Assembly: GCA_963575745.1 (NCBI GenBank)
Contig: CAUYUJ010000004.1
Location: 1 to 64,000, forward strand
Direction: 5' to 3'
Length of the DNA: 64,000 bases
From: Prorocentrum cordatum
Lineage: Eukaryota
How positions within the stretch are numbered: the stretch's first letter is position 1; each line of letters opens with the position of its first letter. Shown piece by piece: positions 20,491-64,000 of the stretch. The position numbers and the translations under genes are program-made. The notes under the pieces were generated by a model, which saw only the letters and a program-made list of their open reading frames with translations, made no database searches and had not been told where the DNA came from.

Positions 20491-20549
20491 CTGCCCTACC
20501 GATCCGTTTCGGGGTGCGACACTGAGGAGTTATGTATAAGGAAGAGGGA

Positions 20550-22390
<1,841 letters not shown>

Positions 22391-27230: not shown

Positions 27231-27376
27231 CGGGGTGTGCCGGCGCTGCGGCGACGGATGGCCTGGAGCAGGGCGAGGTGCAGACGCTCGCTGTCGGCGC
27301 AGGGCAGGGGGCCGTGGAAGTCGAGGGGGCCAAATAGGGCCCCGAGAAGCCCGAGGCGCCCGCGTGGCTCGCGCGA

Positions 27377-32740: not shown

Positions 32741-32763
32741 TGCGCAGCCGTTTTGGCTCACAG
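32741..32763 (+). promoter_or_regulatory. DinoSL-like (relict spliced leader) motif
   Basis: tgcgcagccgttttggctcacag vs DCCGTAGCCATTTTGGCTCAAG: first 20 nt match 17/20, then a 1-nt insertion before AG; lies 44 nt before the ATG at 32808. Confidence 0.6.
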
Positions 32764-32807: not shown

Positions 32808-35800
32808 ATGGACGATGACATCGTCGCCCTCGTGATGGCGATCCCCAAAGGGGACCTTCGCCAGCAACCGACTGGGAGGGAGAAGCGCCTCGACGCGTTC
32901 GAGCGAGGCCGCAGGGCCCGCATCGACGATTTCAGGCGTCGCCGAGAACCTCTGGGCGACAACGACGTGCAGCAGCTGGCAGTCAGGTCCATGACGACTC
33001 CAGGCTGCACTGCTCCCGAAGTTGTTGCGAGGGTGGCGGTCCTGCCCGAAACGAAGCTCATGGCCGTGATGCAGTTGGCGTGTTCGGCGAAGGTCCGAGG
33101 TTCAGGCGCGCCCGTTGAGAAGGTGCGTCGGTTGCGGAAGAAGTCAGTGGCCATCGTGGGCAAACCGTTTCTAGACAGGCAGTTGCGCGGGTGGCAACGG
33201 TGGCTAACCAGGGAGACGCCAGCAGCTGCGGGCGGGCGCCTCTTTTCGATTCGTGGAATCTCAAGCACGTGGGACGAGGCTTCCCAGATGTCACGGGCCC
33301 TCCTGGTGAAAGAGGAGGGTTTGAGCGACCTCGACAAGGGCCAGCAGGTCTTCAACGTGATGGTCATCCTTGGCGCAGCCTCTCAAGCTGCTGCGCAGCG
33401 GGGCCCGCCTGTTTTGATCGCGGACCTCCAGCCCATGGAGATCGAGCGGCAGCCCTGGATTGCAGTGCCCTATTTGCTTGGAAAGCGCTGCTGCCAAACT
33501 TCTGTTCGACGGGTTACGCAGATCATTGCCCGTCGACTTGCCAGCATCAGGAGTCTCGAGATGCTCATGACAAACGTTGACATGCTTATATTTTCTCTCG
33601 CATTGGACTCGGCCTCTTCGAACCTGACCGCGTGCAGCTTCTTGCTCAGGTACATTGAACGAGCGAGTCTGCGCGGTCTGTCGTTGCACTTCCAGCGGTG
33701 CCTTTCGCACCAAATCAACATATGCAGGCCTTCAATTGTTGCAATGGCGGGCGTGGCTGGCATGCTGTGCAGATTGAGCAAGGTGATTGGGATTGGCAAG
33801 AACGCTGCAGCACTCGCAGCCGCGATCCACGACCACGTCAAGACAAGTTGGTTGCCCGTTAAAGCAAGCCTTCCGATGGGCATGCCAAGGTCTTCCCCAA
33901 TCAGTGCTGGACGTGTTTGGCATCGCCGGTGGCTCCGGGATGGTCTTGCAAGATGGGGCGCCCGCGCGCGCGGGGCATTTGCATTTCGCGACGACCTGCG
34001 CGATTTGTGCGAGAGGAGTTTGTTCGACAATTTTGTTGGGGCATGGGTGTATTACGTTGCAGTGGCGCCCAATTCATCTAGCAGGCTCAGGGTCGACCAT
34101 GGCGAGGTAGCTACGTATATATCGACGCCGCTCGTTAAGTGCCCCAGTGGTCGTCGGTGGGGGGTCGGCGCCCTCTCGCGGTGGACAGGCGTCGCGCGGT
34201 CCAGGAAACAGGTCGTGATAGGGGTCGGTGTTCAACCTTGCTCTGCCATCGTGTCTATCGGCTTTATCTTCAAACATGGGCGCGACAGAGGCAGAGCTGG
34301 AGGCCGAGAAGACATTGCGCGCTGACAAAACTGCAAGCGGCGAGGGGGTCAACAGTTCCACGCCCACGAACGTGATCAGGGTGATGAGAGTTTCGAGATA
34401 CTTCAGGGGCGCAGCGAACCGATGGAACGCGGGGGCGTTGCTCATAGGGCGTTCTCAGGTCGAGAAGCTCCACTGGTTTGTGCTTGGCAGCGCCAGTGAA
34501 GGCGGGCGCAAGGCGAAACTGACCGACCTGGTGGATCCGCGGTTGAGCACCGTTGGGCAGCCGTGGATTCTGCCTTTGCGATTATTCAAGGAATGGACTT
34601 TGCCAGACGACCGTCCGCGGCGGCTGCTCGCATTCCTCGGCTGCAGGATCTTCGTTCCGTGGATGTTCGAGCTTGCGCGAGGCGCTTGGTGCTATCGGCC
34701 AGCTGCTGCCTGTTCCAGCGTCTGGGGGCCCCGCGGGGGCGCGACCGCGGCGCTGGCGCCGAATGCGTGGCCACTGCAACAACATGATTGATGCGTGAGC
34801 TCACCTGGCGCGGCCGCGCCAGGTCGTCCAATGAACCGGCCGCGAGGCATGGTTGCAGCGGCCGCGAATTCGGCGTCGGCCAGTGGCGCGCCCGCGCCAG
34901 GTTCAGCATTCGGCATGGCCATTCAAGCTGCAGTGGCTCATATCCTCGAACGTTTCTGATGGGGGCAAGGATGCCGCACTGCAGGAGTTCCTCGATGCAA
35001 GTGGTTACTGCCTCGGGCCGTTTGGCCGCACGTTCAGGGTTCGCCTCCCCGCGACCGAGGCGCAGCGCAGCCGCGCAGCCGCGTCGGTCATCTTGCTCTG
35101 GCAGAGTTGCCGTTGATCGCGACGGCCCCAGCCGAGTGCGAGCGCGAGGCGATGAGGGAGGAGGTGGCGTCCAGCGGTGCTGGATCTGCGCATTGCCCAG
35201 TTGTCTGACGGGCAGCGCGTCGCCATCTGAGAGAGGCCCAGGAGATTAGGGGCGGGTCGCCGTGCTCGCTGCTGCTCCGACGATCTACTATAGAGTCGCA
35301 GGCCATGCTCGGCCAAGAGAAAGGCGCGCCCATCGGCGCCATCGGTGGCCCGCGCGCGGCTCCTCTCCAGCTGGAAGGCCGCCCTGCAGGCGCGGCGGGC
35401 GGTGGCGAACCGGCGGAGACTGGCGTTGGAGACCAGTTCGACGGCGTCGATTTGGAGGAGCTCGTCATGGGCGACGACCCGAGGATGGTCCACTCGAACC
35501 ACCTACTCCGCTCGAGGAGGGAGTTCCTCGATCGACAAATCGGTCGCGACGAGGTCAAGACGGAGGTGCTGTAGCGCGGCGAGGCACGTGACGAACCCGA
35601 TTATGCGCGCGCGATGGGGGTCGCTATGCGACGCGAGGCAGCGGCAGCGCATGCGTTTGTCCTGGGCCCCATCGGGGGGCCAGTCGTCGGCGACGCCAGA
35701 CGAGACGCCCAGGTAGCCAGTGCGGGCAGAAAGCTTGCAGGATGGCGGTGCCGTCGAGGACGCCCCAGTCGCCTCCGTCGCGCTGGCGAACTGCCGCGCC

Positions 35801-37174
35801 TCTCTCGGCGCAGCGGCCGTCGAGAAGCTGGACACCGACGCGAGCCCGTTCAGTGTGGAACCATGCGGCTTGCAGAAACACCCCCCGTCCGAGGCGTCGT
35901 CGTGGGGGCGCTGCGGCGAGTTGCGCCGCCTTTTCGCCGGGCGCGCGGCTCAGTTCCGCGTGATGCGCAGGTTCGACGTCGCCGGCAGTTCAGTGGCATC
36001 GCTGGTCGATTCCATAGACATGGCCACCATCCAGGGCAAGGACTGCATGTCCCACTTCTCCTCGAAGCGGGTGTCTGGCGACGGCAGGGCTCTGCGCGCG
36101 TGGGCCATTATTGAGAGCCCGATGCACAGCCCCCAGGTACAGTGCTTCAGATAGTGCTGCTCTGTTTCGGTGTCCGAGGCCGACCTCGTGGAGGGTGGGT
36201 TCGCGGTTCGATGGCCCGCCCAATGCCCGTGGGAGTTGAAGATCATGCAGTCCAGGAGCCGCCTGCGTTCGCTGCGCGCGATGGCCTTTCGTCTTTGTGG
36301 ACAGGGGAGCGTCGTCAACGACGAGGCCGCGGTCGACGGCGACCTGATGCGCGTCGTCGTCACGGGCAAGGGGGCGGCGAGAGACTCGGCCCCGCGTCGG
36401 CGCGTGGCATCGGCAGACGCGTTCACCGACGTCCAGCAGGCCCCGACCGGATCGCCGATCAGCCGCGGCACCGTGGCCGCGCGAGAACCTGAGACGCCCG
36501 TGGGGGCGGCGCCCAGCCCGCTCGCCATCTGCGAGTGGGGGGCAGCGCCACTGGCCAGAGCGCCGCGGACGGCTTGGATCAGATGATGGCCGAGATTCTG
36601 GAAGGCCAGTTCCACGAGGGTGCCGTGGGGGCGGCCGAGTTCATTGAGGGGAATTTGGCTGGCTGCATTGCTCCGGAGGCGCCCGATGGCGACGGCGCCG
36701 GCGATTTCGGCACGGGGGGGGGCCCGAGCCCGATGAAGGGGGAGAGCGCCTTCATGCTCGTGGAGAGGCAGCCGGGGCCCAATCGACCCGGGGCGTCGCG
36801 ACGTCTTGATCGTCGCAGCCGCCAATGCTGCCGAGGTGATTGGGGTCGCGCCCTTGCCCGTGGCGCCGCCGGTCACCGAGCGGGGCGGCGCGGGCGCCGC
36901 GACGTACCGCATTGGCGACCCGGGGGTTGTAGCGGGGCTGCTGCGGCCCCGCAATGCAGTGCCAATTGTTGGCCTCGTCGGGTACGGGGGCGACCGCGCC
37001 AACATCTTTGGGAACTGCCACCTCCGCCTGGGGCGCAGCGTCAGCGTTGACATCATGAGGGGCCAAGTGTCGAGGGGGCGCATGGCAGGGTGTTTGGTGC
37101 TCGGCGAAGTCGCAGACAGGAGCGCCCCCATGGAGCAGCGTTGGGCTGCGGGGGCGGCCCGCCGAGCGTATTAG
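32808..37174 (+). pseudogene. Decayed DDE transposase of the CxxH class (hAT/MULE/P-like) with a long degenerate C-terminal extension
   Basis: STWDEAS, ALDSASSN, QRCLSHQ, LSRW and, after frameshifts, AECER (about 35131-35146) in the expected order. The 3' boundary is uncertain. Confidence 0.55.
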
Positions 37175-39697
37175 GTCAGGCCGTGCTAATCCGCTCAGAC
37201 AGTTGAATTGCATAGATTTTATGTACAAGCGTGAGAGAACGTCATCCTTGAAGTCGCGCGCCCCCCTCCCTGCCCTCGCCGCCCCCTTCGGCGCTGCCCT
37301 CGCGGGCGGCGCTGAGTTTGGACATGCTTGCCAGCCGGCGCCAGCCCATCTGGTGAAATGCAGCGGCAAGCAGCGCAACCGCGAGAGTGGCAGCCGCTGC
37401 CCATGGATAAGCCGAGGAGGGCGAAGGGGAACGCGGGGGAAGAGCGCCAACTTTCTCGTCGCCAGGGGCCCCAGGAGGGCCCCATGAGACCCCTTGCCCT
37501 AGGTGTTGCCAGATTGGGGTTCCAGAGGACTCCAGAAGGGGGCCCGAGGGGTGCCCGGAGGGCCTCGGCAGGGGCCCGAGAGGGGGCGCAGTGGCGGACT
37601 GCGAAATCATGAGTTGGTTTTCGCCGTTGGGTTCTTTGCGGGGTCCGTCGGGTGGACGGTGCTTTTCCTGAGCCCTTCGGAGCCGCCAGAAGGCTTCAAG
37701 ATGGCTTCCATGTCGCCCCAGGGGAGATGCCCGACTGGCCCAATATTGCCCGGGGAGGGCCCAAGAGGGCTCCGAGAGGGCCAAGGGGGCCCTGGCCGTC
37801 GAGCGCGCCGCGGTGCATCAATTAGCCAAAGAACGACATCTGGCACCAACCATAGGGTACAATCGCGCCAACCATAAAATCATGAACCGTCGGGCCCCGT
37901 ACAGTGCCGTTTTTAATGCATGCTCCGCGTGCGGATCATGTGTAAAAAATGCAGGGATTTAGTATTACAAGCACCGGTGAGTTCATGCATCAATTTATTC
38001 ATAGGTTAATCATGATTTCAACATTTAATTTTTATATCAAAAACCATGCATTAAAACAACTGCCCTATATGCAGTCGACGCGTTGTCCCAGCCATAGAGC
38101 GCCAACCATAGGCGCCATGAGGTATGCTCGGCGATGGGAATCGTTCTCTGTCGTGTCGTGCCGTGCCCGCCCCCAGCACTATCAACGTCGCCGTGCGGAT
38201 CGGTATGCTGATGACAGCGGTCACCGTCAGCATCGCCGCAATCAGCACTATGACCACGACAACGTAATACACTGCTGCGACACGTGCGATAATGCGGTTG
38301 ATGATGACGAGGATGTGGATGGAGGAGGAAGATGAGTATGTTGCGGGGGGTGGCGATGGCGAGGATGAAGATGGGGATGGGGAGAGGGCGGGAGGAGGGG
38401 CACGGCGATGACGGAGGAGGGCGCTGATGCGAAGGGGGGTGCTGCGGATGATTGGGAAGATGAGAATGATAGAGCTGATGATTATGATGTGTTTGTGTGT
38501 GAGAGAAGGAGAGAGAGAGAGTGTGTGTGTGTGTGTGTGTGTTTGTGTGCGTGGCGGATCTACAAGCGAAGCATCGTGGATGGTCGCAAAATTATCGTAG
38601 ATGCTTCAGCGCGCAGCGCGCGCCCACGGAGCGCTGGGCGCCGCGCGCGCGCGTCGCAGGCGGGCGTGCCGAGCGGGCGGATCAGGCTTGGCGCGCGTGC
38701 AGGGGGGGCGCAGCGGCGCGCGCCCCCGCCGCCGCGTGCGATCGCAGGCGCGCGGGTGAGCGAGCGGCCCAACCCCGCGCGTGCGACCGCGGGCTTGTGT
38801 GCGGCGCAGGTGAATAATGTGCTATTATTCAGGAGCGCCGCGCGTGCCCGCCTGTGGACTTTTTGCTGTCTCTGATCTGCTGGCTGTCCGCGCGGCCTTC
38901 CTGGCTGGCTGTGCCTTGTCGTCGTTTCGTTCTTTCGGGCCTCGGGTTCGCGTCCGCTTTCTCCTTGGGCTCGCTGTCCGTCCTTGCTTCTTCCTGCCCT
39001 GCGTGTTGGCCTGTCCTGTCCTGGGTCCGCTGCCTTCGCCCGGTCTGGTCCTCTGGCTCGCCTCGTGACAGTCGCCTCCCTCGGGTTGTGTCTTCGCGTT
39101 CGCGTGTCCCCGGCCGCCCTCTGGCTGCTTCGTCTGCTGTGTCTGGTCGTCTGGGCCCCTGTCCCGGGTCTCGGGCTCTCTCGTCTGCCTGCTGCCGCCT
39201 TGCCCCCTGCCCCCCCCCCCCGCGTGCGCGGACCAGTCGCCGTCGCGCCGTCGCCCTCTCCTCCCCGCGCAGGTTCCGAGTCCCCCTCTCCTCCGCCGTC
39301 GTCTTTGTTGTGCGGCTCGAGGTCGGGACATTTGGCCCTACTCGCAAGCTCTTGCTTTCTCCTGGAGGCGCATTAGCCAGATGCGGGGGCTCCCCGTGCG
39401 ATTGGCAGCCTCCCTCGCGGCACGGGGTCGCACGTTGTGCAGTGCAGCGCTGCGCGAAGAGTTAATTTGCGCCGGGGTGCGACGCAGCGCGCGAGGGGCG
39501 CGGGGGAAAAGGTTTGCTGGGCTGTCATGCTTGCATTCCTGAAGGAGGACCCGATGGTCGGGGCCGAGTGGGGCGATCTTGCGATCGTGGATCACGCTCT
39601 CTATGATGATGCTGCTGCTGCTGATTATGATGATGGTGATGCTGATGCTGATGATGCTGATGCTGATGTTGGTGCTGATGCTGATGACGATGACGAC

Positions 39698-41606: not shown

Positions 41607-41628
41607 TCCGAAACTGCTTCGGCTCAAG
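41607..41628 (+). promoter_or_regulatory. Weak DinoSL-like motif in terminal repeat A1
   Basis: tccgaaactgcttcggctcaag, 16/22 ungapped to TCCGTAGCCATTTTGGCTCAAG; 46 nt before the ORF0 ATG. Confidence 0.45.
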
Positions 41629-52224: not shown

Positions 52225-52782
52225 AGCGAATGTGCGCGGCGCTAAGGCGAGAGCCACATTTTGAAAAGGAGCCGCCCTCAATCCGTGAAACTCTTGCAAA
52301 TGTCCAAAGCGAATGTCCGCGGCGCTAAGGCGAGAGCGCTAAGGCGAGAGCCACATGTTGAAAAGGAACCGGCCTCAATCCGTGAAACTCTTGCAAATGT
52401 TGAAATCCAATGTGTGCGGTGCTGGGGCGAGAGCCACATGTCGAAAAGGAGCCGCCCTCAATCCGTGAAGCTCTTGCAAATGTTTAACACGAGCGTGCGC
52501 GGCGCTAAGGGGAGAGCCGCATGTTGTAAACGACCCGCCCTCTATCCGTGAAGCTTTTGCAAATGTCCAAAACGAATGTCCGCGGCGCTAAGGCGAGAGC
52601 CACATGTTGAAAAGGAACCGCCCTCAATCCGTGGAGCTCTTGCAAATGTTCAAAATGAATATGCGCGGCGCGAAGGCGAGAGCCACATTTTGAAAACGAC
52701 CCGCCCTCCATCTATGAAACAGTTGCCAATTGTTAAGCTTCAGGGTCATAAATGGTGAGGAAGTCTCAGGCGAAACGCCCGG
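52225..52782 (+). repeat. About 83-bp tandem repeat array with a fixed end motif, copy 2
   Basis: Same unit and same terminal tctcaggcgaaacgcccgg as 19975-20490. Confidence 0.85.
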
Positions 52783-53341
52783 CCCGCCCTGACAATTGGC
52801 TTCGGGGTTCGGCAGGGAGAAATTATTCATAAGGAAAAGACTGAAGGAGGAGGAGGAGGAGGAGGAGGAGGAGGAGGAGAAGGCGGACGAAGAGGAGGAG
52901 GAGGAAGACGAGGAGGCGGGGCAAGGAGGAGGAGGAGAGGCACTGGCACTGGCACTGGCCAGGCCCATCCTGGGCCCAGGAGCGGGGGGGTCAGGGCCAG
53001 GGGTGGGTGGACCTCGTGGCGGGGGCCACGAGACCTCCCCGGGTGCACAGACCCCTCGCGCTCTGAAAATATCACGACGGGAGGTTTTTCGCTAGTTTCG
53101 GTCTCCGGGAGGCCCTTCCCAGGACCCAGGACCGTCAAAAAATGACACAGGACGAAACATTGGTGCCGGGGAAGGGGTCCAGAACTCTGGGAGTCAACGT
53201 CATGGGTGTGCGGGGCACGTGAATGAGTGATGGGAGGTCTTGAGTGTCGGTGCCCTTTTGAAGTCCCATTTCGTTCTGCCCCGTAGGTTTGATCCCGTGG
53301 AATGCGCGGTCGAAATGCTGAGAACCAAATTTTTTGACCGA

Positions 53342-53361
53342 TCTGTAGCTTCTGGCTCAAG
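53342..53361 (+). promoter_or_regulatory. DinoSL-like motif before E2 ORF0
   Basis: tctgtagcttctggctcaag: 18 matches to the 22-nt SL with a 2-nt gap; 22 nt before the ATG at 53384. Confidence 0.55.
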
Positions 53362-53383
53362 AATCAGAGCAAGGTCTCTTTTG

Positions 53384-53872
53384 ATGCTGCCATCGCACCT
53401 CTCAGCGACGTTGCTGTCGGTGGGGTTGATCTTGCGGGGGGCATTGCATTGGCATCTGCTCTCCGAGGTTGACCACGTTGTCAACTACGCTGTTGAAGAG
53501 GCCGTGGAGCGCATCGAGAACGTGACGGTCAAGAGCCTAGTGTGCCCGGCGAGTCTGGGACCCTCTGACTTTCCTGACTGTCCGGACTGCGTGTGTCCGG
53601 CCTGCGTGTGCCCAGCTCCCTCGCCCTGCCCGCCGATTGGCTGGGCGGACGTCGCGGACCAGATCGACTTGCACAGCAAGCGTCCAGACGAGAACAACTC
53701 CTTCTTGATCGGCTTCGGGGCGGGCGTAGTCTTCACCACGTTCCTCGTCGCCGGTTACTCCGCTTGCAGGCGGGAAGCACCACTACGTCGTAGCCATGGC
53801 GATGGCGGTCATGGTCGATGTGCGCCGGGACGCTCAGGGACGGTCTCTGAGCCTCGCGGAGTTCTACGATAA
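53384..53872 (+). CDS. E2 ORF0: 162-aa putative membrane protein with CPxC repeats
   Basis: LSATLLSVGLILRGALHW...CPDCVCPACVCPAPSPCPP...FLIGFGAGVVFTTFLVAGYSAC-RR; intact. Confidence 0.7.
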   Translation: MLPSHLSATLLSVGLILRGALHWHLLSEVDHVVNYAVEEAVERIENVTVKSLVCPASLGPSDFPDCPDCVCPACVCPAPSPCPPIGWADVADQIDLHSKRPDENNSFLIGFGAGVVFTTFLVAGYSACRREAPLRRSHGDGGHGRCAPGRSGTVSEPRGVLR

Positions 53873-55251
53873 GATCCGGGTTGGTCAGAGCCTGGCCTTG
53901 CACTACCCGGGCGAGCCGAACTGGATGGAGAGAGTGCTCATCTGCGCGGGACCGGTGTCCGGCGGCCGCCGGACCAGCAGTTGGTTCGGGATGACTCCCG
54001 ACCTAGACGTGTACGAGGAGGACATCACGGGCGAAGGCGACATGTGTGACGGTGTGGTGGTCCTGGACGACGATGGCCGTACGCCGGCTTTCCTGCGGGG
54101 GAAGTTCTACCGCTTCCGGGACGAGGACTATTTGGGGGACGACGAGCTGAAAGCGAAGTGCCGGGACATCGCTGCCTCCCTGCGGGCGCATCAGGAGCCA
54201 GGGGATATGCCTTACTTCTTGAATTACGAGGGGGAGGTCAAGCCCTTGGCTGGCGTCAGCCGGCGCACTCTTGCGAGGGGCGCCCGAGGAGCCGCAGCTG
54301 CGGGCTCTGCGGACGCCCAAGGGGGGGGCTCCAGACCAGCCCGCCATTAGGGCGGGGTGCGTTTGGGTGATGGCGGAGGTCGGCGCCTTCGCCGCCGTCG
54401 GCACGGAGGTCAGCCTCGGCCCCAAGTCGGTGATCATCAGCGATCGCGACGCCCTTGTCGAGGACAACGGGTCCCTCTGGCGGGTCCAGGCGATGCCCGT
54501 CGTCGAGGCCCCGAACTTCGCCGAGAAGGTGCTCGATCGGGTCCGGAAGGTCGTCGAGCCCCTTGCTCCTGCGGGGCCGCCCGCGGGCTCGGGCCAGGCC
54601 CCGCCGATCGCGGAGGACGACTGTCGCACTCTCTGGGTGGACGTCGACGAGCAGGGGTCCCGTTTTAAGAGCTGGCGGAAGTTGTGCACCGAGCTGTACC
54701 AAGAACCCCTGAAGTCAGATGACGTGCTGGGGCCTCCTGGAGCCATCCACCTCTGCAAGCACATGCAGCGGTATGGGGGCTGCCCTCGGAGGTGGGCCTT
54801 GGATTTTCTCTGAGACCGGGGAATCCAGCGCAGCGACCAGGTCTACCATGAACTCGTCGCCTGGTGCGAGGTCCTCAAGCTGCTGGGCGAATATGACCAG
54901 CTGAACCTGGGGGCCCTGGCTGGGGTGCAGAAGCTGACCAGGAGGGTGAACGGCATCATCGAGGCGTACGGCTCCCCGGGGGCCGTGAGCTGGCGGATGG
55001 CAGGGGTGCTGGAAGGAACGGCCAGCCACCTCGACGCCATTAGCCCCGCGCTGCGGCAGTGGGGCGTTCGGCGCATCAAGGACCAGAACGAGCTGGAGGC
55101 GGGCCGCAGCAGAGTGGCTCCGCCGACGCAGGATGGCGAAGGGGCGCTTGAAGGCGCCGGAGACGTCTCTGGGCGCGGCCGAGGCCGCGGCGGCGACCGG
55201 GGGAGAGGGCGCGGACGGTCAGCAGCCCGAGCCCCTGGAGATGGAGGTTGA
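53796..55251 (+). pseudogene. E2 gag-like ORF (frameshift near the G-run at 54321-54328; in-frame TGA at 54811)
   Basis: TPDLDVYEE; RTLWVDVDEQGSRFKSW; YDQLNLGALAG; GR-rich tail. Confidence 0.72.
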
Positions 55252-57568
55252 GAGAGGCCGTCGGGGCGGAGGAGAGGCTCCCGCCTCCGCCCCGTTGCAT
55301 GTTGGGAGTGGCAGGCTGCCCTGGTCTGCCAATTCGCGTCGGCTGTTCCCGCTAGAGTCAGGAGTCGTGGACGAGCCGTTGCCGAGAGAGGCCGGGGGTC
55401 GCACCCTGGGTCGTCAGAGGCGGCCGCGGCACATAGCGGGCCTAGTCAATGACGCAGTGCACTCGCTTAATTGGTTGGCAGGCGATCGATCGGAAAAGTC
55501 ACTTGCCCACTCTGCTGAAGCGGTCCGTCCATTACCCCCTTCGTCGAAGACTTCGTCGTCGGCGTCGGGATGGAGGAGGGCGGGCGCGGGCTTCGGGGTG
55601 ATGGGCGACATGGGCGAGGCGACCGTCGATCACCTCACCGACCTCGCCGGTCTGTTTTGCCCCCCGGGGGGGAATCCAGATTACCGGCCGCCGGAAGCCG
55701 CCTTGCGAGAGCTGCTCCGGGATCGCCCCGGTGGATGCGATGCCACTGGGGCGCCGACAGCGTTGGCCCCCTGTCGACAGGGCCTGGTGTCCCTTCCGGA
55801 TCCCGTGGACAAGATAGCCAGAATCGAGGATCTTGTGGGGGCCCGAGGCAGTTACTTTCTCGAGAGGGACGGTGAGCGAATGTTGGGCAACAGCACGAAC
55901 AATGAGAACTGATGGGGGAATGAACGAGATCGTCGATATGTTGTCCCGCACCTGGTTGGCAACAAGAGGCGTTATGCCCGATTTGTACGTGATCTTCGAA
56001 AACGCGGCCTCGTTAGATTCGGCCTCACTGTCGAGGAAGAGTGCGGGGTTTTCTTTGTCAAGAAGAAAAGCGGGCGCTTGCGCATGATATTGGATCCCCG
56101 GCGCGGCAGCGCGAGGTTTGCTGAGCCGCCCAAGGTGGACCTCGTGACCGCAGAGGGGCTGGGCAGAATTGCGGATGCGAAGGACGCCTTCCGCAGGATG
56201 GCCATGCCCGAGTGGCTCTCGAGATACTTCGGCCTCCCCGCCCTGCCGGCCAGCGCCCTGGGCCTCACTTTCGTCGACGGGGTCCGCGTCGGCCCCGACG
56301 CATTGGTTCGCCCGATGCCGACGTGTCTGCCCATGGGCTTCAGCTGGTCGTTGTTGCTTGCCCAGGATGCCGACGAGGTGTCTGCGTCGTCGGTGCTTCC
56401 CCGGGCCGAGCTTCTCACAGATCGCGGGAGGCCCTTGGCATTGTCGGTGGCCGAGCCCGAGAGAACCCGCCATTACGTTTATGTCGACAACGTCGGTGTC
56501 TTCGGATTCAGCATGTCCGTCGTTTCGGAACGCCTCGACAGTGTGGTGGAGTCTTTCGAGCGCCGGGGGCTCCAAATCCACGAGAAAGACATCAGCGCTG
56601 ACGGCGTCGAGGCCCTCGGGGTGCTCCTGAACGGACGAAGAGCCCGCGCCCGGATCACGACGAAACGGTTCTGGCGGGTTCGCGGGGCGCTCGTGGCACT
56701 TGCTCGGCAGCGTCGTGTGACGGGCAGGGAAGTCGAGGTGGTGATCGGCCACGCTACTTTTTGCGGTCTGCTGCGGGGTGAAACCCTCAGTGCTTTTAGC
56801 ACAGTGTATGCTTTTATACATAAGTACTATAACATTCCCGCTGATCTCTGGCCCTCCGCCCGCGAGGAGTTGCGGGCTTTCGCTGGTTTAATGGTGATGC
56901 TAGTCAGCTCCTGGGCCCTACCCTGGAACACCTATGTCATCTCCTCCGACGCATGCGCTACGGGGTTCGGAGTAACCGCGCGCCGTGCGCGAGCGTCTCT
57001 TGTGCCCTCCGTTGGCCGTGTCCGCGAGCGAGACCGATATTTAACCAAGGGGCACGTGGCGGCCCGCGAAGCGGCCCTCGGTGCTCTCGGCCTCTTGAGC
57101 CCCCCCCCGCCGGGGGCCCTGGAGGGGCTCCCCCGGGGCGATTTGGTCCAGGGCCAGAGTTTTTCGGAAGTGCCCGGGGAGCTCTTGGAGGAAGACAAAT
57201 GGTCCGTCGTCGGAGCTTGGCCGCTTGAATTCCAGGAGGACATAATGGTGTTGGAAGCCAGGGCCGTGCTCAGAGCTGTAGAAAGGATCCTTCATTCCGA
57301 GCCAGGGCGCAACATGCGGCAGCTGACTCTCTGCGACAATTTGGGTCTCACCTCGAGCATTTCCAGGTGGCGTTGTTCATCGTTCCCAGTTCTGGTGGTT
57401 ATCCGCCGCATTGCCGCCATTTGTTTAGCCAGGAACGTGCGCCTCAGCGTCCGATGGATCCCCACAGAAGTGAGCACATCGGATGCGCCGCCCTGGGTTT
57501 TCGAGCCAGGGCCCCCCCCCGAAAGAGGCCCCTCGAGCTTTCGACGGCGGCGCCCCGGTGCGTTTTGA
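55241..57568 (+). pseudogene. E2 reverse transcriptase / RNase H (frameshifts near 55900-56000)
   Basis: GVFFVKKKSGRLRMILDPR; DAKDAF; LPMGFSWS; YVDN at 56480-56491. RNase H: SSDACATGFG, LEARA, CDNLG, RWIPTE..TSDAP. Confidence 0.92.
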
Positions 57569-57836
57569 AGGGCAGGAGGTTTCGAACGAAGTGGGCCAGG
57601 CACCACGGCCCGAATCGCCCCTCAGCACCGCGCCCCATGAGAAGCTGCGCATTTCTCTTTTTGATGCTTTGCGTTTGGATGGGCATGAGAACCGCGAGAG
57701 ACCTCGGCGGCCGCTCGGCCAGCAGTGCCAGAGTGGCCTGACCAAACCGTATGTATGCCTTGGAGTGAGCAGTCGGTCAGGCGCCCCTTCTGAACCCGAG
57801 CTGGAAAACAGCGCACATCGATGTCGCCCCTCCCCT

Positions 57837-57858
57837 TCCGTAGCCGTTGTGGCTCAAG
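57837..57858 (+). promoter_or_regulatory. Near-perfect DinoSL motif upstream of the YR ORF
   Basis: tccgtagccgttgtggctcaag, 20/22 ungapped to TCCGTAGCCATTTTGGCTCAAG; 45 nt before the ATG at 57904. Confidence 0.8.
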
Positions 57859-57903
57859 CGCCGGGCTGCGAGCAAACGTTGGCCAGCTTCCCATTCCTTC
57901 ACG

Positions 57904-59328
57904 ATGTCTTCCCGATGCGGGCGTGCTCCTGGCCCCGCTGGCCCGAGGCCCCTTGCCAGGGTGGCCGAGGCGGGGCCGTCGCGCCGCCGCGTGTTGCCGC
58001 GGAGTCAGGAGGGGGCTGCGGCAGCGAGCGCCCAGGCCGGCCCGGCCGCGAAGCTGACTCGCACCCTCGCTTCGGCGACCGAAGCGGCGGGGGGCCAGGC
58101 CGTGAGGAGCCGGGTGCGGGCAGCCCTGCACCACCGCGGGGTGCAGTCTGTCCTGCAGGCGAGCCGCGGCCTTCGGGGCCCTCCGCAGCCCGTGGACCAG
58201 CTGGTCGAGGAGCTGACCGTGCCTGGGCCGGCTCCGCGCGACGAGATGGCGGACAGTTCGTCGACCGAGGCCGAGTCGGCTGCTCCTGCGGCGGCCCCCC
58301 GAGCGCGGGCCCCCCCGAGGGGAGGGAAGAGGCAGCTGGACAGGTGGCTCGGCGAGGTCTTGGACGCACAGGTTGCCCACCTCACAGCCGGGGAGCTGAA
58401 TTCAGTGAAGGCGCGGACCCGGGAGCACTATGTCAAGGAGCTCCGGGGCTTCGCGGAGTGGGCCGGAGTGAGGCTAGTGACGGACTTGGCCACGCGCGAG
58501 CTCGACTCCAAGCTGGTCCTGTACGTGCAGGACCTCATTGTCCAGGGGGAGCATGCTTCGCGAGGCATGAAGTTGCGGGAAGCTGTCATGTTTGCCTGCC
58601 CAGAGGTGTCGAAGCTGGGGTCGGCTGGGCTGCCGAGGAGCTGGCGCGCCCTGAAGGGCTGGTCGAAAGCGACGCTGGGCCGGTCCAGACTTCCCGAGGC
58701 CCACCCGGTGTGGGCGGGGATCATGCACCAGCTCGTGGGGCAAGGGCAGGCGGATATGGCAGTTTTTCTCTTGATGATGCTTTCGTCGTATGCCCGGCCA
58801 GGGCAGATGATGAGACTGCGGCCTTCTACGCTGCTGCCGCCGTCGCACGTCGCCGGGCACTGGGCCCTCCTCCTGAATCCGGAGTCCGAGGGGGTCCCGT
58901 CGAAGGCCGGCGAGTTCGACGTGGGCGTCGAGCTAGACCAAGAGATCTGGAAGGACCTCGGCCCTCTGCTGGAGGGGCTGCGGCAGCTCCCAGCAGGGCG
59001 ATATCTCTGGCGCTTCACATACCCGAGTTTCGCGAAGGCCTTCAGCCAGGCTGCCCGGGACCTGGGGTTGCAGGTTGTTCCCTACCAGGCTCGGCACAGC
59101 GGAGCGTCGATCGACGCCGCTACCCGGCGCCGCCCGTTGCACGAGAGAAAAAAGCGAGGCGGGTGGCGGTCGGTTAAGTCCGTGGCGAGGTACGAGAAGA
59201 GCGCCCGGCTGACGCAGACGTGGATGGCCCACGCGCCCCAGCACCGGGTGCACCTGGAGCGGTGCAGCGAGACGCTCGTCGACTGCATCCTGCACGGCGT
59301 CGTCACGCCTTGGCACCCTTTGCGTTAG
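57904..59328 (+). CDS. E2 tyrosine recombinase, apparently intact
   Basis: YARPGQ, SKAGEFD, YQARHSGAS, GGWRS...RYEK (Tyr at 59191); no stops. Confidence 0.92.
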   Translation: MSSRCGRAPGPAGPRPLARVAEAGPSRRRVLPRSQEGAAAASAQAGPAAKLTRTLASATEAAGGQAVRSRVRAALHHRGVQSVLQASRGLRGPPQPVDQLVEELTVPGPAPRDEMADSSSTEAESAAPAAAPRARAPPRGGKRQLDRWLGEVLDAQVAHLTAGELNSVKARTREHYVKELRGFAEWAGVRLVTDLATRELDSKLVLYVQDLIVQGEHASRGMKLREAVMFACPEVSKLGSAGLPRSWRALKGWSKATLGRSRLPEAHPVWAGIMHQLVGQGQADMAVFLLMMLSSYARPGQMMRLRPSTLLPPSHVAGHWALLLNPESEGVPSKAGEFDVGVELDQEIWKDLGPLLEGLRQLPAGRYLWRFTYPSFAKAFSQAARDLGLQVVPYQARHSGASIDAATRRRPLHERKKRGGWRSVKSVARYEKSARLTQTWMAHAPQHRVHLERCSETLVDCILHGVVTPWHPLR

Positions 59329-59907
59329 TGCAAGACGGGCATCGGGCCGAGTTCCTCGCTTTTGGACCGAATGCCCAGCGGGTTGCTGCCGCTCTCCGCC
59401 GCCAGGGATTTGAGAGTCGAGGCAACAGCTGGGAATCTGTGTCGCGTCGGTCGGCCGTGCGTTTCATCTCGATGATTCAGCGCTCTCAGGTCCTGGGCGT
59501 GTTTCTAGACCTCACAGCCGGATTCGATGGGTGTATCCCGAGCCGTCTGATTGATGTGTTGTCGGTTGATGGTGCCTTGCCTCTGCGTGTACTATCCTGA
59601 CTCCCTGTCGTCGCTTGCGTCGGTGTCAAAACGACTAACCGATGACAGTTTTCATCATGTGAAGTGCCATTCGTGCGGCTACGGAGGCGTTTCCCGGGAA
59701 GCCTTTTATTTCTGCGCCTTCGGCTTGGCACTTGAAGATCTTGGCCGGCTCACCCGGCAGTGCCGCGGAGCGCACTCATATTGCGGTTTCCGGTGCCCTC
59801 CTCGGCGCCACAGTCGGACCTTCACGAGGCTATTTCCGCTCGCTCTCTGCGACGCGGTCGCTTTTTCCCTCGCTTCTCTGCCTCGGTCCCTCTACCTACA
59901 AGTGTGA
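59316..59907 (+). pseudogene. E2 methyltransferase-like ORF lacking catalytic motifs (one frameshift near 59550)
   Basis: Aligns by eye to the E1 MTase (CCRL.VP, CGYG, L...CRG....C...RH, FP..LC), but the G-loop, PC and ExP motifs are absent. Confidence 0.55.
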
Positions 59908-60176
59908 ACAGTTCCTGACTTGGGGAACCGAATTGGGGGATCGAGGTCGGCCGGACTGCCCCGAGGACCGGTGGTCAGCCGCGGCTTTTGCACATCAGAT
60001 CTTATAATTTATAGTGCTGGCGTCCAGCGCGCTGCGACGTAGGCCACGCCGGACTGCAAAGAAAGTGATCCGCAAAAAGAGTTTCAACATCTATCATGAA
60101 AATATCATGACGTCGGGGGTTTGGGAGGGTGGGTGGACCTCGTGGCGGGGGCCACAAGGCCTCCCCGAGTATTTCT

Positions 60177-60412
60177 AGGCCTCCTAGATGGGGTCGGGGC
60201 AGATGGGGTCGGTGCATCGTGCCGCATCGCCGATGCATCGCCGATGCGGCTCGATGTGGGGCCCGGTTTGCTTCACAACGACGTCGCTGATGTATCGCCG
60301 ACGACGATGCATCGCCAGTGCATCGCCGATGCATCGCCGATACATCGGCGATGCGTTGGCGATGCGACGCGATCCCCCGACCCCATCTACCCAGACCCCA
60401 TCTGGGAGGCCT
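60177..60412. mobile_element. MITE with about 36-bp TIRs and internal gatgcatcgcc repeats
   Basis: aggcctcctagatggggtcggggcagatggggtcgg / ccgaccccatctacccagaccccatctgggaggcct; TSD unresolved. Confidence 0.75.
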
Positions 60413-61834
60413 CTAGGTCACGGCCAGGGCTGGGTGGATCTCGTGGCGGGGCCACGAGACCTCCCCAGACACCGTGGCCCCTCGTCTCCTCTCGGGGCCG
60501 TCCCGCTGGCCACTCCGCCCGTCTCGTCCGCGCGCGTGCCTCCTCGGGCCGTGATGTGCGGGCCCTCCTCTCGGACGCCCCCTCTCGGGGGCGGCAAAGA
60601 GGGGGGTGATGACTAGGCGGGGGGGTGGATATCATGGCGGGGGTCATGATATTTCCTCAGATTTTATAGCGCCTCTTCTTATTTCCTTACGTCCCTGGTC
60701 CCCCCCCGCTGGGTCGCGCACATGCCGCCGGTCATGATTTGCACCCCCCTCTTGGACACCCCCCTCGTGGCCGCTCCCGACCCTCGGACGCCCCCGAGGA
60801 GAGTTGGCGCCCCCCGATCTTCCCCCGTGCCGAGGTTCGGAAGCTGGGCGAGGGCTGGCAAATCCGTGGCTGCCAAAACGGTCTTCCTGGACGGAACAAA
60901 CACTCCCGGAAGCAATTTCAGCGCGATGCATGGTAAGCGGGCCGCGTCCCGGGAGAGAATTATGCTAACGGAGTTCCCCACATAAAGATATTAACGGTTT
61001 CGTGGGACCCATGGGGTACGACAACATCATTACGAAGCAGAAGATCATCGAACGAGTAAGTACGCACGAAAGGGCAGACGAAAGAAAGGAGGAGGGAGGA
61101 CAGGTGCTCAGGAAACGAAGCCTTGTAAATAGTACGGTTTCTTGATACCCTCCTCGCTCTGGCGGGGCCCCGCTGGAATGGGGGAGGGCTACGAAACCTG
61201 GTAAAGAGTAATGCTTTCCGCGACCCTCCTCGTTCAAGCGCGGCCTCTCTGGAGGAGTGGAGGGGGGACACGAAACCGTGTAAACTGCATTGTTTTCCGA
61301 TACCCTCCTGGAGGAGGAGGAGGAGGAGGAGGAGGAGGAGGAGGAGGAAGAGGATAAGATAGATGATGGTGAAGAGCAGCAGCAGGAACCGCAGCAGGAG
61401 CAGCAGCGGGACGATGACCAGGAGTATGAACATGAAAAGGAGGAAGGTCGGGCGGGCGGGTGAGTCGCCCAAGCGTCCAAGGTCCGATTCGTGAGGTTGG
61501 TCTGGGCGGTCTCTTTTTCCTCGTCCTTCCTCCTCCTCCCCCTCCTCCTCCTCCTCCTCCTCCTCCTCCTCCTCCTCTGTCTTCGCCCTCGTCGGTGCCG
61601 TAGTCGTCGTCGGCAGCGTCGGCGTCGCCGTCTTCCTCAGGCGGGCCCTAAAGGCGGGCCCTGAAGTATGGATTACCATCGACTTGGCACGCATGTACCC
61701 CTCCTCCTCCTCCTCCTCCATCTCCCCCTTCTCTTCCTCTGCTTGTTCTTCGTTGTCGTCGTCGTCGTCATCATCAGCATCATCGGCATCATCATAGCCG
61801 TCATCATCACCAGCATCGTCGTCGTCATCATCAG

Positions 61835-62551: not shown

Positions 62552-63812
62552 GAGGGGCACGAATCCATTTGAATAGTATGGGTTTCCGACACCCTCCTCG
62601 CTCAGACGGGGCTTCCCTGGAGTGGTGGGAGGGGCACGAAACCATGAAAATAGTATCAGGCGGGCTTCCTTGGAGGGGTGGGAGGGGCACGAAACCATGT
62701 AAATAGTATGGGTGTCTGATGCCCTCCTCGCTCAGGCGGGGCCTCCCTGGAGAGGTGAGAAGGGCACGAAACCATGTAAATAGCATGGGTTTCCGATACC
62801 CTCCTCGCTCAGGCGGGGCCTCCCTGGAGAGGTGGGAAGGGCACGAAACCATGTAAACAATATGAGTTTCCGATGCCCGCCTCGCTCAGGCGGGGCCTCC
62901 TTGGATGGGGTGGGAGGAGCACGAAACCATGTAAACAATATGAGTTTCCGATACCCTCCTCGCTCAGGCGGGCCCCCCCTGGAGGGGTGGGAGGGGCACG
63001 AAACCATTTGAATAGTATGGGTTTCCGATGCCCTCCTCGCTCAGGCGGAGGCTCCATGGAGGGGAGGGAGGGGCACGAAACCATGTAAATAGTATGGGTT
63101 TCCAATACCCTCCTCGCTCAGGCGGGGCCTCCCTGGAGAGGTGGGAGGGGCACGAAACCATATAAATAATATGAGTTTCCGATACCCGCCTCGCTCAGGC
63201 GGGGCCTCCCTGGAGGGGAGGGAGGGGCACGAAACCATGTAAATAGTATGGATTTCCGATACCCTCCTCGCTCAGGCAGGCCTCCCTGGAGAGGTGGGAA
63301 GGGCACGAAACCATGTAAGTAGTATGGGTTTCCGATAACCTCCTCGCTCAGGCGGGGCCTCCCTGGAGGAGTGGGAGGAGCACGAAACCATGTAAATAGT
63401 ATTGGTTTCCGATGCCCTCCTCGCTCAGTCGGGGCCTCCCTGGAGGGGTGGGAGGGGCACGAAACCATTTGAATAGTATGGGTTTCCGATACCTTCCTCG
63501 CTCAGACGGGGCCTCCCTGGAGGGGTGGGAGGGGCACGAAACCATCTAAATAGTATGGGTTTCCGATACCCTCCTCGCTCAGGCGGGGCCTCTCTGGAGG
63601 GGTGGGAGGAGCACGAAACCTAGTAATTAGTATGGGTTTCCAATACCCTCCTCGCTCAGGCGGAGGCTCCCTGGAGGGGAGGGAGGGGCACGAAACCATG
63701 TAGATAGTAATTACGGGCTTCCGACACCCTCCTCGCTCAGGCGGGGCCTCCCTGGAGGGGCGGGAGGGGCACGAAACCTAGTAAATAGTGTGGTACTCCG
63801 ATGCCCTGCTCG
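62552..63812. repeat. 77-bp tandem satellite, about 16 units
   Basis: Unit gggcacgaaaccatgtaaatagtatgggtttccgataccctcctcgctcaggcggggcctccctggaggggtgggagg; diverged units also at about 61110-61310. Confidence 0.95.
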
Positions 63813-63819
63813 CTCTTGC

Positions 63820-64000
63820 GGGTATGGTATGGTAAGGTATGTATGGTATGGTGTTGTATGGGTAGTTCGGTATGGTATTGTATGGTATGTGTGGTATGGT
63901 ATTGTATCGTATGGTAGGTATGCAAGTGTATGGTAGATATGGTATGGCATTGTATGGTAGGTACGGTATGGTATGGTGCGGTATGGTATGGTATGGTACG
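63820..64000. repeat. (GGTAT)n pentanucleotide repeat
   Basis: Direct reading; runs off the window end. Confidence 0.95.

What the first reader, a model, noticed from the sequence alone, without database searches (positions are those of the whole stretch)
57837..57858. Spliced-leader-like motifs hard-wired in front of transposon ORFs, including an internal one
Seen: a 20/22 match to DinoSL in the spacer between pol and YR of E2, 45 nt before the YR ATG. Weaker matches lie 22 nt before E2 ORF0 (53342), 46 nt before E1 ORF0 inside terminal repeat A (41607) and 44 nt before the DDE transposase ATG (32741). All four are sense-strand and 22-46 nt upstream of a start codon. Known: dinoflagellate nuclear mRNAs receive the 22-nt SL DCCGTAGCCATTTTGGCTCAAG by trans-splicing, and relict SLs arise by retroposition. 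Inference: these elements either encode SL mimics to express cistrons of a multi-ORF unit, or were assembled by capture of trans-spliced subgenomic mRNAs.
Basis: partly seen in the sequence, partly recalled or inferred. Interest (0 to 1): 0.85.

Follow-up and report, generated by a model that had tools for sequence, protein, structure and literature searches.

The report
Worn spliced-leader copies inside transposons
A dinoflagellate jumping gene carries, between two of its genes, a slightly worn copy of the short leader that the host splices onto its messenger RNAs, most likely a fossil of a processed message that was copied back into DNA, which is a known process seen here in an unusual internal place.

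Summary
The main observation holds. Window 57837-57858 (+) matches the dinoflagellate spliced leader (DinoSL) at 20 of 22 bases. No shuffle reached this score (0 of 100; 0 of 200). It lies 45 nt before the ATG of an intact 474-codon tyrosine-recombinase (YR) ORF and 268 nt after the stop of a reverse-transcriptase/RNase H frame.

Of the three weaker motifs, 32741 is significant on its own and 53342 only jointly with the others. 41607 is at chance level.

My reading is that these are relict DinoSLs, left when trans-spliced mRNAs were reverse-transcribed and re-entered the genome. This is a known and very common dinoflagellate phenomenon. The new detail is the position: inside a YR retrotransposon, at the head of its last cistron. 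That implies YR was once made as its own leader-capped sub-genomic mRNA whose cDNA recombined into the element.

The copy itself is decayed, with two in-frame stops in gag/pol. The distant relative E1 lacks the internal motif. One 92%-identical contig from another sequencing run keeps the pol-motif-YR layout. A functional "SL mimic" is neither shown nor excluded.

This scan had already noted leader-capped LINEs and a leader copy in copia LTRs in this genome. Novelty: new variant of a known kind. Interest is moderate.

The parts
57837..57858 (+). Relict spliced leader (20/22 to DinoSL; changes at positions 10 A>G and 13 T>G), internal to element E2
   Evidence: Score 36 against a shuffle maximum of 32. 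Its TAG at 57841-57843 is the stop that closes the YR frame upstream (ORF 57844..59328).
57825..57836 (+). C/T-rich tract directly before the relict. With the relict's GTAG it looks like a 3' splice-site context.
   Evidence: The 30 nt upstream are 63% pyrimidine, about the 90th percentile of the window. The role is an inference only.
57859..57903 (+). 45-nt leader between the relict and the YR start codon
57904..59328 (+). Intact 474-codon tyrosine-recombinase ORF of E2
   Evidence: 7 homologues. The N-termini of several align to this ATG. AlphaFold2 model, pLDDT 64.7. The top Foldseek hits are Cre, XerH, XerA, the integron integrase and lambda/HP1 integrases, best E 6.9e-4.
57569..57836 (+). 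Non-coding spacer between the pol stop (TGA 57566-57568) and the relict
   Evidence: No stable fold (z = +1.56). No Rfam match.
54989..57568 (+). pol frame of E2 (RT and RNase H-like), broken by an in-frame TGA at 55910-55912
   Evidence: Relative P0019 carries RVT_1 above Pfam's cut-off. The window ORF itself gives only RVT_1 at E 0.27.
54223..55251 (+). gag-like frame of E2 with an in-frame stop at 54811-54813
   Evidence: A tblastn segment of P0125 (residues 162-424) runs across the stop.
53342..53361 (+). Weaker SL-like motif (TCTGTAGCTTCTGGCTCAAG), 22 nt before ORF0. One contig of run X2 begins to match the window at 53345.
   Evidence: score 26, 0.395 expected; record 9; exact 9-mer TGGCTCAAG
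53384..53872 (+). ORF0 of E2, 162 codons, no family found
32741..32763 (+). SL-like motif: 19/22 plus a 1-nt insertion, by my own alignment of the letters
   Evidence: (score 29, 0.03 expected). The 30 nt upstream are 80% pyrimidine.
32808..37183 (+). Transposase-like gene. The first 505 codons are open; the rest is spread over several frames.
   Evidence: 103 representatives; 0 of 35 scanned relatives have a Pfam family; Hermes, ISCth4 and P-element transposases, E 2.4e-3 to 6e-3; the start M is shared with P0021, P0034 and P0038
41607..41628 (+). Chance-level SL-like stretch inside the 82-nt repeat of E1 (second copy ends at 47998)
   Evidence: score 20, 17 expected per shuffle; repeat family D14
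52989..53044 (+). Hairpin-like repeat that recurs at 60127-60170 and 60416-60466. These may be the terminal repeats of E2.
   Evidence: Whether they belong to E2 is not settled.

Best explanation
The motifs at 57837 and 32741, and probably 53342, are relict DinoSLs. They are DNA copies of the 22-nt leader that was trans-spliced onto an mRNA before that mRNA was reverse-transcribed and re-entered the genome.

E2 is a decayed gag - RT/RNase H - YR retrotransposon of the tyrosine-recombinase kind. The internal relict marks the former 5' end of a separate, leader-capped YR mRNA, so the element's long transcript was cut by trans-splicing in front of YR.

The cDNA of that sub-genomic mRNA was then joined back to the full-length element. 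I infer this happened either by template switching between the two RNAs during reverse transcription or by recombination with a genomic copy. Later copies inherited the leader in cis.

Shown: the match, its strand, its exact 3' end at the leader's AG, its place before conserved start codons, the pol-then-YR order in relatives, and the decay of this copy.

Inferred: trans-splicing at that site, the recombination step, and any present function.
For: 1. The match is beyond chance: 0 of 100 shuffles and 0 of 200.

2. The three hits scoring 26 or more are all on the coding strand. They lie 45, 44 and 22 nt before ATGs opening 474, 505 and 162 codons. Only 0.48% of positions precede an ORF of 450 or more codons in this way.

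3. The match stops at the leader's terminal AG and is followed by CGCC, not GT. It is therefore the spliced exon, not an SL RNA gene.

4. The YR start at 57904 is the family's start. Homologues P0006, P0008 and P0010 begin within the same N-terminal region.

5. The order pol then YR is ancestral, so YR is not a stray insertion. It is seen in E1 and in P0133, one 953-aa predicted protein with RT/RNase H followed by YR.

6. A 996-nt contig of run X2 is 92% identical and bridges 57437-58454. Its gaps lie only at 57515 and 57698-57707, so a second copy keeps the pol-motif-YR layout.

7. The motif is worn (2 of 22 changed), similar to the 4-8% difference between E2 and the X2 contigs. E2 has in-frame stops at 54811 and 55910 inside homologous segments. 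Both fit neutral decay.

8. Relict DinoSLs within 500 bp upstream of more than 20% of Symbiodinium genes are documented (PMC5585692, passages seen). They are also used as a marker of retroposition for endogenised viral genes (PMC10235124, passages seen).
Against: - I found no poly(A) remnant or target-site duplication around the YR segment (sequence read).
- No family copy without the leader could be obtained, so the insertion point cannot be shown by comparison.
- The bases just before the relict do not end in AG. A clean insertion of the leader at an acceptor site is therefore not what is seen.
- I had no RNA 5' ends. No listed run is on record as RNA.
- At least 4 X2 contigs match only 57827-57859/60, with C/T-rich letters before and unrelated letters behind. 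This could mean the motif with its upstream tract is kept in several contexts. That fits a conserved functional module as well as independent relicts.
- The X2 evidence for a second copy rests on a single bridging contig. I could not see whether the motif letters themselves are the same there: 352 differences were not listed.
Confidence: 0.7

Rival explanations
1. Functional cis-encoded leader. The element keeps the leader copy as a working part. It could be an internal start site or promoter, so that YR mRNA begins with a ready-made leader. It could also be a strong trans-splice acceptor, using the C/T tract plus the relict's own GTAG.
For: - Song et al. propose that the TTT(T/G) box of recycled DinoSLs acts as a promoter for retrogenes (PMC5585692, passage seen).
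- A C/T-rich tract precedes the motifs at 57837 and 32741.
- At least 4 X2 contigs share only the 33 nt around the motif.
- As an analogue found in passing, AT-rich IMG/VR contigs labelled as giant-virus bins carry exact DinoSL copies. 92 of the 133 sites scored are followed by a first-ATG ORF of 100 or more codons, and many are preceded by recurring AT-rich blocks. Cis-encoded leaders in parasites of dinoflagellates are therefore plausible.
Against: - None of the three copies is exact.
- 57837 has lost TTTT/TTTG (it reads GTTGTGG).
- E1 has no such motif between pol and YR.
- The carrier copy is decayed.
- An internal copy carries no cap.
- No RNA data were available.
Confidence: 0.17
2. Two separate events side by side. 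A leader-capped YR retrocopy landed by chance next to the remnant of another element's pol, so the motif is not internal to one element.
For: - gag/pol is broken while YR is intact.
- The spacer of 268 nt has no homology to the RNase H-YR linker of P0133.
- C/T-rich flanks could be a target preference.
Against: - The pol-then-YR order is shared by E1 and P0133.
- The X2 copy bridges pol end, motif and YR start colinearly.
- The differences from X2 are similar on both sides, 4.4-8.5% against 5.2-7.9%.
- With about 0.8 lesions per kb in gag/pol, an intact 1.4-kb YR is expected by chance about one time in three (my estimate).
Confidence: 0.1
3. Chance similarity or an SL RNA gene.
For: The 41607 motif alone is at chance level.
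Against: - For 57837, 0 of 200 shuffles reach its score.
- There is no GT donor after the AG, and the Sm-site core is altered.
- There is no Rfam match.
Confidence: 0.02

Closest known systems
Relict DinoSL of dinoflagellate retrogenes ('recycling of processed cDNAs'; Slamovits and Keeling 2008 as cited in PMC5585692; Song et al. 2017, PMC5585692; Stephens et al. 2020, PMC7245778; passages seen)
   Same: A sense-strand, slightly worn copy of the 22-nt leader a few tens of nt before a start codon. It ends at the leader's AG and is read as the mark of a reverse-transcribed trans-spliced mRNA.
   Different: Here the gene behind it is a cistron of a retrotransposon, and the relict lies inside the element, downstream of pol. 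There are no tandem truncated relicts. No intron-bearing parent copy is at hand for comparison.
Tyrosine-recombinase retrotransposons of the DIRS order (Ngaro-, PAT- and VIPER-like; PMC6681497, passages seen)
   Same: A gag-like ORF, then RT/RNase H, then a YR with a Cre/Xer-like fold. Short repeats flank the unit.
   Different: - RT motif C reads YVDN in 8 of 8 aligned relatives.
- There are no Pfam hits for the window ORFs.
- YR is a separate ORF with a long low-complexity N-terminus.
- A host leader copy sits before YR.
- Neither 'spliced leader' nor 'dinoflagellate' occurs in the text of PMC6681497 (term search).
dinoRNAV transcripts and endogenised RdRp genes with a 5' or nearby dinoSL (PMC10235124, passages seen)
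   Same: A genetic parasite of dinoflagellates carrying the host leader. The paper reads it either as a mark of retroposition or, for the transcript, as speculated mimicry.
   Different: That case concerns an RNA virus and its endogenous copies. This one is a retrotransposon with the leader between two of its own genes.
Sub-genomic mRNAs of retroviruses made by splicing (recalled, not checked in a paper here)
   Same: A downstream gene of a long retroelement transcript is expressed from a processed, shorter mRNA. Processed RNAs can be reverse-transcribed and recombine with genomic RNA.
   Different: Cis-splicing from a shared leader exon, against trans-splicing of a host leader. In retroviruses the leader is the element's own.

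Membership tests
Relict DinoSL (retroposition mark) | Sense-strand match to DinoSL well beyond chance. The literature threshold is an exact 9-mer within 500 bp upstream of an ORF. | tested here: met
   57837: 20/22, with 0 of 200 shuffles reaching its score. Exact 9-mers are present at 57850, 53353 and 32751. The 41607 motif has no exact 9-mer and its score is at chance level.
Relict DinoSL (retroposition mark) | The match ends at the leader exon's last AG and does not run on into an SL-RNA intron. | tested here: met
   CTCAAG is followed by CGCC (57859), by AATC (53362) and, after a 1-nt insertion, by CTTT (32764).
Relict DinoSL (retroposition mark) | Other marks of a retrocopy: poly(A) remnant, target-site duplication, or a parent copy without the leader. 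| tested here: not met
   No A-tract directly behind the YR 3' region. No parent copy could be fetched: no whole genome is held, there were 3 unhelpful metagenome loci and none in viral contigs.
Relict DinoSL (retroposition mark) | The host trans-splices DinoSL. | not testable with these tools
   No RNA run is on record. The closest named protein relative is from a dinoflagellate. Earlier scan notes report leader-capped LINEs in this genome; I did not check these.
SL RNA gene | Exact leader with an intact Sm site, followed by a GT splice donor. | tested here: not met
   Two mismatches, one of them in ATTTTGG. The next bases are CG. No Rfam hit.
DIRS-order YR retrotransposon | Tyrosine recombinase. 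| tested here: met
   The Foldseek rows shown are dominated by Cre, Xer and phage or integron integrases, best E 6.9e-4. R, K, RH and Y columns are conserved in alignment A1. Pfam finds nothing for the ORF, and a PDB sequence profile gives nothing relevant.
DIRS-order YR retrotransposon | Reverse transcriptase with RNase H upstream of, or next to, YR in one unit. | tested here: inconclusive
   The window ORF gives RVT_1 at E 0.27 only. Relative P0019 (E 1.9e-32 to the ORF) has RVT_1 above the cut-off and P0016 below it, so 2 of 12 scanned. Motif C is YVDN, not YxDD, in 8 of 8. The adjacency of pol and YR is met.
DIRS-order YR retrotransposon | Terminal inverted or split direct repeats. | tested here: inconclusive
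   E1 has an 82-nt direct repeat pair, 95% identical. E2 has a hairpin-like repeat at 52989, 60127 and 60416. However, one X2 contig stops matching upstream of 53345.
Cis-encoded functional SL mimic | The motif is kept more strictly than its flanks among copies, and transcripts start at it. | not testable with these tools
Only one related copy was seen, as contigs without the letters of the motif.

The most novel reading that the evidence does not exclude
A family of dinoflagellate tyrosine-recombinase retrotransposons resolves its multi-gene transcript with the host's spliced-leader machinery. It has fixed a DNA copy of the leader in front of its recombinase gene, and perhaps its first ORF, as a working module. 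That module would be an internal start site or a dedicated acceptor, first acquired by copy-choice recombination between genomic and sub-genomic RNAs. The element would thus carry the host's mRNA 'passport' in cis, as the AT-rich virus-bin contigs appear to do on a large scale.
Probability: 0.17. Interest if true: 0.7.

Novelty: new variant of a known kind. Interest (0 to 1): 0.4.

Why it matters
Relict leaders are the standard marker of mRNA recycling in dinoflagellates. Finding one between two cistrons of a retrotransposon gives a concrete, testable hint about two things:
- how multi-gene elements are expressed in a host that trans-splices its mRNAs, namely through a leader-capped sub-genomic mRNA for the recombinase;
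- that processed sub-genomic RNAs can be written back into the element.

It also warns annotators. Counting leader relicts upstream of ORFs as 'retrogenes' will sweep in transposon cistrons. Song et al. already saw the category 'RNA-dependent DNA replication' enriched during both retroposition bouts (PMC5585692, passage seen).

If the copy proved functional, it would be a case of a mobile element building host mRNA identity into its own DNA.

Tried and rejected
- Whole-genome search: no genome is held for this window.
- Metagenome scan with the YR alignment: 3 loci, none with upstream sequence or an SL-like hit of 22 or more. The first alignment was too divergent to search with.
- Viral contigs: no YR relative, no pol relative, and 0 exact hits of the window's variant motif.
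- RNA evidence: no RNA holder is listed. Runs X2 and X3 are only guessed to be RNA and are kept as contigs, so they say nothing on starts, ends or expression. X4 laid nothing.
- Rfam, whole window and 57500-58000 at E up to 5: nothing.
- Fold of the spacer: no better than shuffles, z = +1.56.
- Pfam on the window ORFs: nothing relevant at E up to 0.01. Only RVT_1 at E 0.27 appears at a loose threshold.
- PDB sequence searches for YR and pol: nothing relevant.
- Inverted repeats around the transposase-like gene: no flanking pair, only a palindromic block upstream.
- Aligning the E1 and E2 5' motifs: no extended similarity. I therefore dropped the idea of a shared conserved 5' module.
- Literature. 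Searches 'DinoSL + retrotransposon + relict', 'spliced leader + retrotransposon + subgenomic' and 'spliced leader / transposable element / dinoflagellate / tyrosine recombinase' listed no paper whose title or abstract start describes a leader copy inside a transposon. I read only passages of five papers, and supplements were not opened.

Full report
**Observation**

Window 57837-57858 (+) reads TCCGTAGCCGTTGTGGCTCAAG. It is the only place on either strand within 3 mismatches of the DinoSL consensus given in the finding, and none of 100 shuffles gave a match.

I ran a gapped local scan of both strands (match +2, mismatch -2, gap -3). The site scores 36, while the best score in 200 dinucleotide-preserving shuffles was 32.

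The three weaker motifs differ in strength:
- 32741-32763 scores 29, with 0.03 such hits expected per shuffled window.
- 53342-53361 scores 26, with 0.395 expected.
- 41607-41628 scores 20, with 17 expected. Its repeat copy ending at 47998 scores 18. This one cannot be told from chance.

All three hits of 26 or more are on the + strand. With the exact-9-mer rule used in the literature (PMC5585692, methods passage), the window has 6 sites on + and none on -. Shuffles give 3.5 +/- 1.9 for both strands together.

Those ATGs open 474, 505, 162 and 178 codons. Only 0.48% of all positions lie 15-50 nt before an ATG that opens 450 or more codons, so two motifs doing so is not a product of the GC-rich ORF background.

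**What the genes are**

Pfam finds nothing for the window's 'pol', 'YR' or 'DDE' ORFs at E up to 0.01. At a loose threshold only RVT_1 appears, at E 0.27. The labels therefore needed other support.

YR (57904-59328):
- It has 7 relatives in the large protein collection, none with a Pfam domain.
- The alignment keeps the R, K, R-H and Y columns expected of a tyrosine recombinase.
- An AlphaFold2 model (mean pLDDT 64.7; the first 138 residues are disordered) finds Cre, XerH, XerA, the integron integrase and lambda/HP1 integrases as its top Foldseek hits. The best E is 6.9e-4, with low TM-scores, as expected for two mobile domains.

pol (54989-57568):
- It has 9 relatives.
- Among 12 pol-side relatives scanned, one (P0019) has RVT_1 above Pfam's cut-off and one (P0016) below it.
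- One relative is named by its source as a partial protein of Prorocentrum cordatum.
- Motif C reads YVDN in all 8 aligned sequences.

The ORF behind 32741:
- It belongs to a family of 103 cluster representatives, many about 1,400 aa long.
- None of the 35 I scanned has a Pfam family.
- Its model (pLDDT 70.8) hits the Hermes, ISCth4 and P-element transposases and retroviral integrases only weakly, at E 2.4e-3 to 6e-3.
- The protein atlas points to P-element-like RNase H domains at scores below 0.9, which is a lead only.
- 'DDE-type transposase' is therefore plausible but not proven.
- The gene continues to about 37183 through several frames.
- Its first methionine is the family's start: P0021, P0034 and P0038 align from their residue 1.

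**Anatomy of E2**

E2 reads as follows:
- the motif at 53342;
- ORF0 (53384-53872);
- a gag-like frame (54223-55251);
- the pol frame (54989-57568);
- a 268-nt spacer;
- the leader copy;
- 45 nt of leader sequence;
- YR.

The gag-like frame has an in-frame stop at 54811 and pol has an in-frame TGA at 55910. Both lie inside segments that align to relatives, so this copy is decayed. YR is intact.

The TAG inside the leader copy is the stop that closes the YR frame upstream. In this copy YR therefore cannot be read on from pol.

A hairpin-like repeat flanks the unit at 52989-53044, 60127-60170 and 60416-60466.

E1 (about 41.5-48.0 kb, with an 82-nt direct repeat pair) is a distant, frameshifted relative. 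Its YR is 36% identical and its RT N-terminus 35% identical to those of E2. It has no + strand SL-like hit of 18 or more between pol and YR.

**Is the motif really internal to one element?**

The order pol then YR recurs in E1 and in P0133, a 953-aa predicted protein from a 4.1-kb contig. P0133 has RT/RNase H (E 1e-74 to the E2 pol) followed by YR.

Contigs of a coded run (X2, organism B, guessed RNA but possibly DNA) cover E2 from 53345 to 59352, with 4.4-8.5% of letters differing. One 996-nt contig bridges 57437-58454, with gaps only at 57515 and 57698-57707. It runs across the pol end, the motif and the YR start.

So the layout is shared by at least one other copy. I could not see the letters of that contig at the motif, because 352 differences were not listed.

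One X2 contig stops matching the window just at 53345, with 15 further unmatched letters. This hints that the shared unit may begin at the 5' motif, as in a copy made from a leader-capped RNA. That rests on a single contig.

**Interpretation**

An exact or near-exact host leader in genomic DNA, on the sense strand, ending at the leader's AG and not followed by a GT donor, is what the literature calls a relict DinoSL:
- More than 20% of gene models in two Symbiodinium genomes have one within 500 bp upstream (PMC5585692, passage seen).
- The same mark is used for endogenised viral RdRp genes (PMC10235124, passage seen).

On this reading the motifs before the transposase-like gene and before ORF0 are ordinary.

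The one before YR adds something. It says the YR cistron once existed as its own leader-capped mRNA, meaning the element's long RNA was trans-spliced in front of YR. It also says the cDNA of that mRNA became part of a full-length element. The separate, conserved YR start codon in relatives fits a separately expressed cistron.

How the leader got in is inferred, not shown. It could have been template switching between genomic and sub-genomic RNA, or recombination with a DNA copy. The bases before the relict do not end in AG, so a clean insertion at an acceptor site is not what is seen.

**Against, and open**

- There is no poly(A) remnant, no target-site duplication and no leader-less sister copy.
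- C/T-rich tracts precede two of the three motifs: 63% and 80% pyrimidine over 30 nt, against a window mean of 48%.
- At least 4 X2 contigs match only 57827-57859/60, with C/T-rich letters before and two kinds of unrelated sequence behind.
- This may reflect independent relicts next to common low-complexity tracts, or a conserved module (acceptor or start site).
- Song et al. propose that the TTT(T/G) box of recycled leaders serves as a promoter (PMC5585692, passage seen). The copy at 57837 has lost that box, while the one at 32741 keeps it.
- I rate a present function at about one in six.

**Prior notes of this scan (unchecked leads)**

The same genome was noted to hold LINEs that start with the leader, a leader copy inside copia LTRs, and an intron-rich YR retrotransposon family. 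The general theme 'leader copies in transposons of this genome' was thus found before on other DNA. The internal position before YR was not among those notes.

**Side observation**

The exact 21-nt leader occurs in 119 stretches of the IMG/VR collection, mostly contigs labelled as giant-virus bins with a median G+C of 0.22.
- I counted 134 distinct sites and scored 133 of them.
- Many are preceded by a few recurring AT-rich blocks.
- 92 of 133 are followed, at a median of 49 nt, by a first-ATG ORF of 100 or more codons.
- 13 of 40 such ORFs have a Pfam family, among them DUF4116 repeats, CCCH and RING fingers, NADAR and an ABC ATPase.

This looks like large-scale cis-encoding of the host leader by AT-rich viruses or virus-like genomes. 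A search for 'giant virus + spliced leader + dinoflagellate' listed 16 papers, none of which describes it by title or abstract start. I did not verify that the contigs are viral.

**Verdict**

The best explanation is a relict leader from recycled, trans-spliced transposon mRNAs. The internal copy is a fossil of a sub-genomic YR mRNA.

It is a new variant of a known kind and moderately interesting. It is directly testable with the genome's other copies and with full-length cDNA.

Noticed in passing
IMG/VR loci L004-L122 (e.g. L014, L015, L027, L056, L068): The exact 21-nt DinoSL occurs in 119 stretches of AT-rich contigs (median G+C 0.22), mostly labelled giant-virus bins. Many sites are preceded by recurring AT-rich blocks. 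92 of the 133 sites scored are followed, at a median of 49 nt, by a first-ATG ORF of 100 or more codons. Some are tandem leader - 29 nt - leader arrays. This looks like cis-encoded host leaders on many genes. No paper describing it appeared in the listing.
   Followed up: partly
window 56470-56500 (pol motif C) and alignment A5: The RT catalytic motif reads YVDN instead of YxDD in all 8 aligned pol relatives. Y190, V191, D192 and N193 are invariant columns.
   Followed up: no
window 57725-57763: A 39-nt piece of the pol-YR spacer is matched by 21 contigs of run X2 at a summed depth of about 2,300. All carry T>C at 57739, with unrelated sequence on both sides. It has no Rfam match. What it is remains unexplained.
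   Followed up: no
proteins P0125 and P0126 (named by their source as Durusdinium trenchii, partial): These gene models join a gag-like part and the N-terminal part of pol directly to the YR part, without the RT/RNase H core. This could be a deletion derivative or a cis-spliced route to YR expression in another dinoflagellate.
   Followed up: partly
window 32808-37183: A transposase-like gene of an uncharacterised family. There are 103 cluster representatives, many about 1,400 aa long, and 0 of 35 scanned have a Pfam family. Invariant D156, E157 and D267 columns are present. The fold resemblance to Hermes and P-element transposases is weak.
   Followed up: partly
window 60178-60415, flanked by 60127-60170 and 60416-60466; also 52989-53044: A palindrome of roughly 240 nt, rich in GCATCGCCGATG units (by eye), sits between two copies of a hairpin-like repeat that also lies 5' of E2. 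A short GAAAATATCA(C/T)GACG word occurs next to the repeat on both sides of E2.
   Followed up: no
window 31494-32500: A block of about 1 kb made of inverted repeats with long C- and G-runs around GGTCACTACCGGTTCGAACC-like units lies just upstream of the transposase-like gene.
   Followed up: no
window 24455, 25335 and 53789: Further exact 9- to 10-mers of the leader lie on the + strand. Two are upstream of the ORF with a nucleotide-sugar transporter domain (25954-28023). One (CGTAGCCAT) overlaps an ATG at the head of the 53730-54350 frame of E2. Each is at chance level on its own.
   Followed up: no
window 62552-63828 and 52156-52750 / 20004-20587: There are tandem arrays with 77-nt units (19 copies in family D7, most of them between 62552 and 63828) and 83-nt units. 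The 83-nt array is shared between two places in the window.
   Followed up: no
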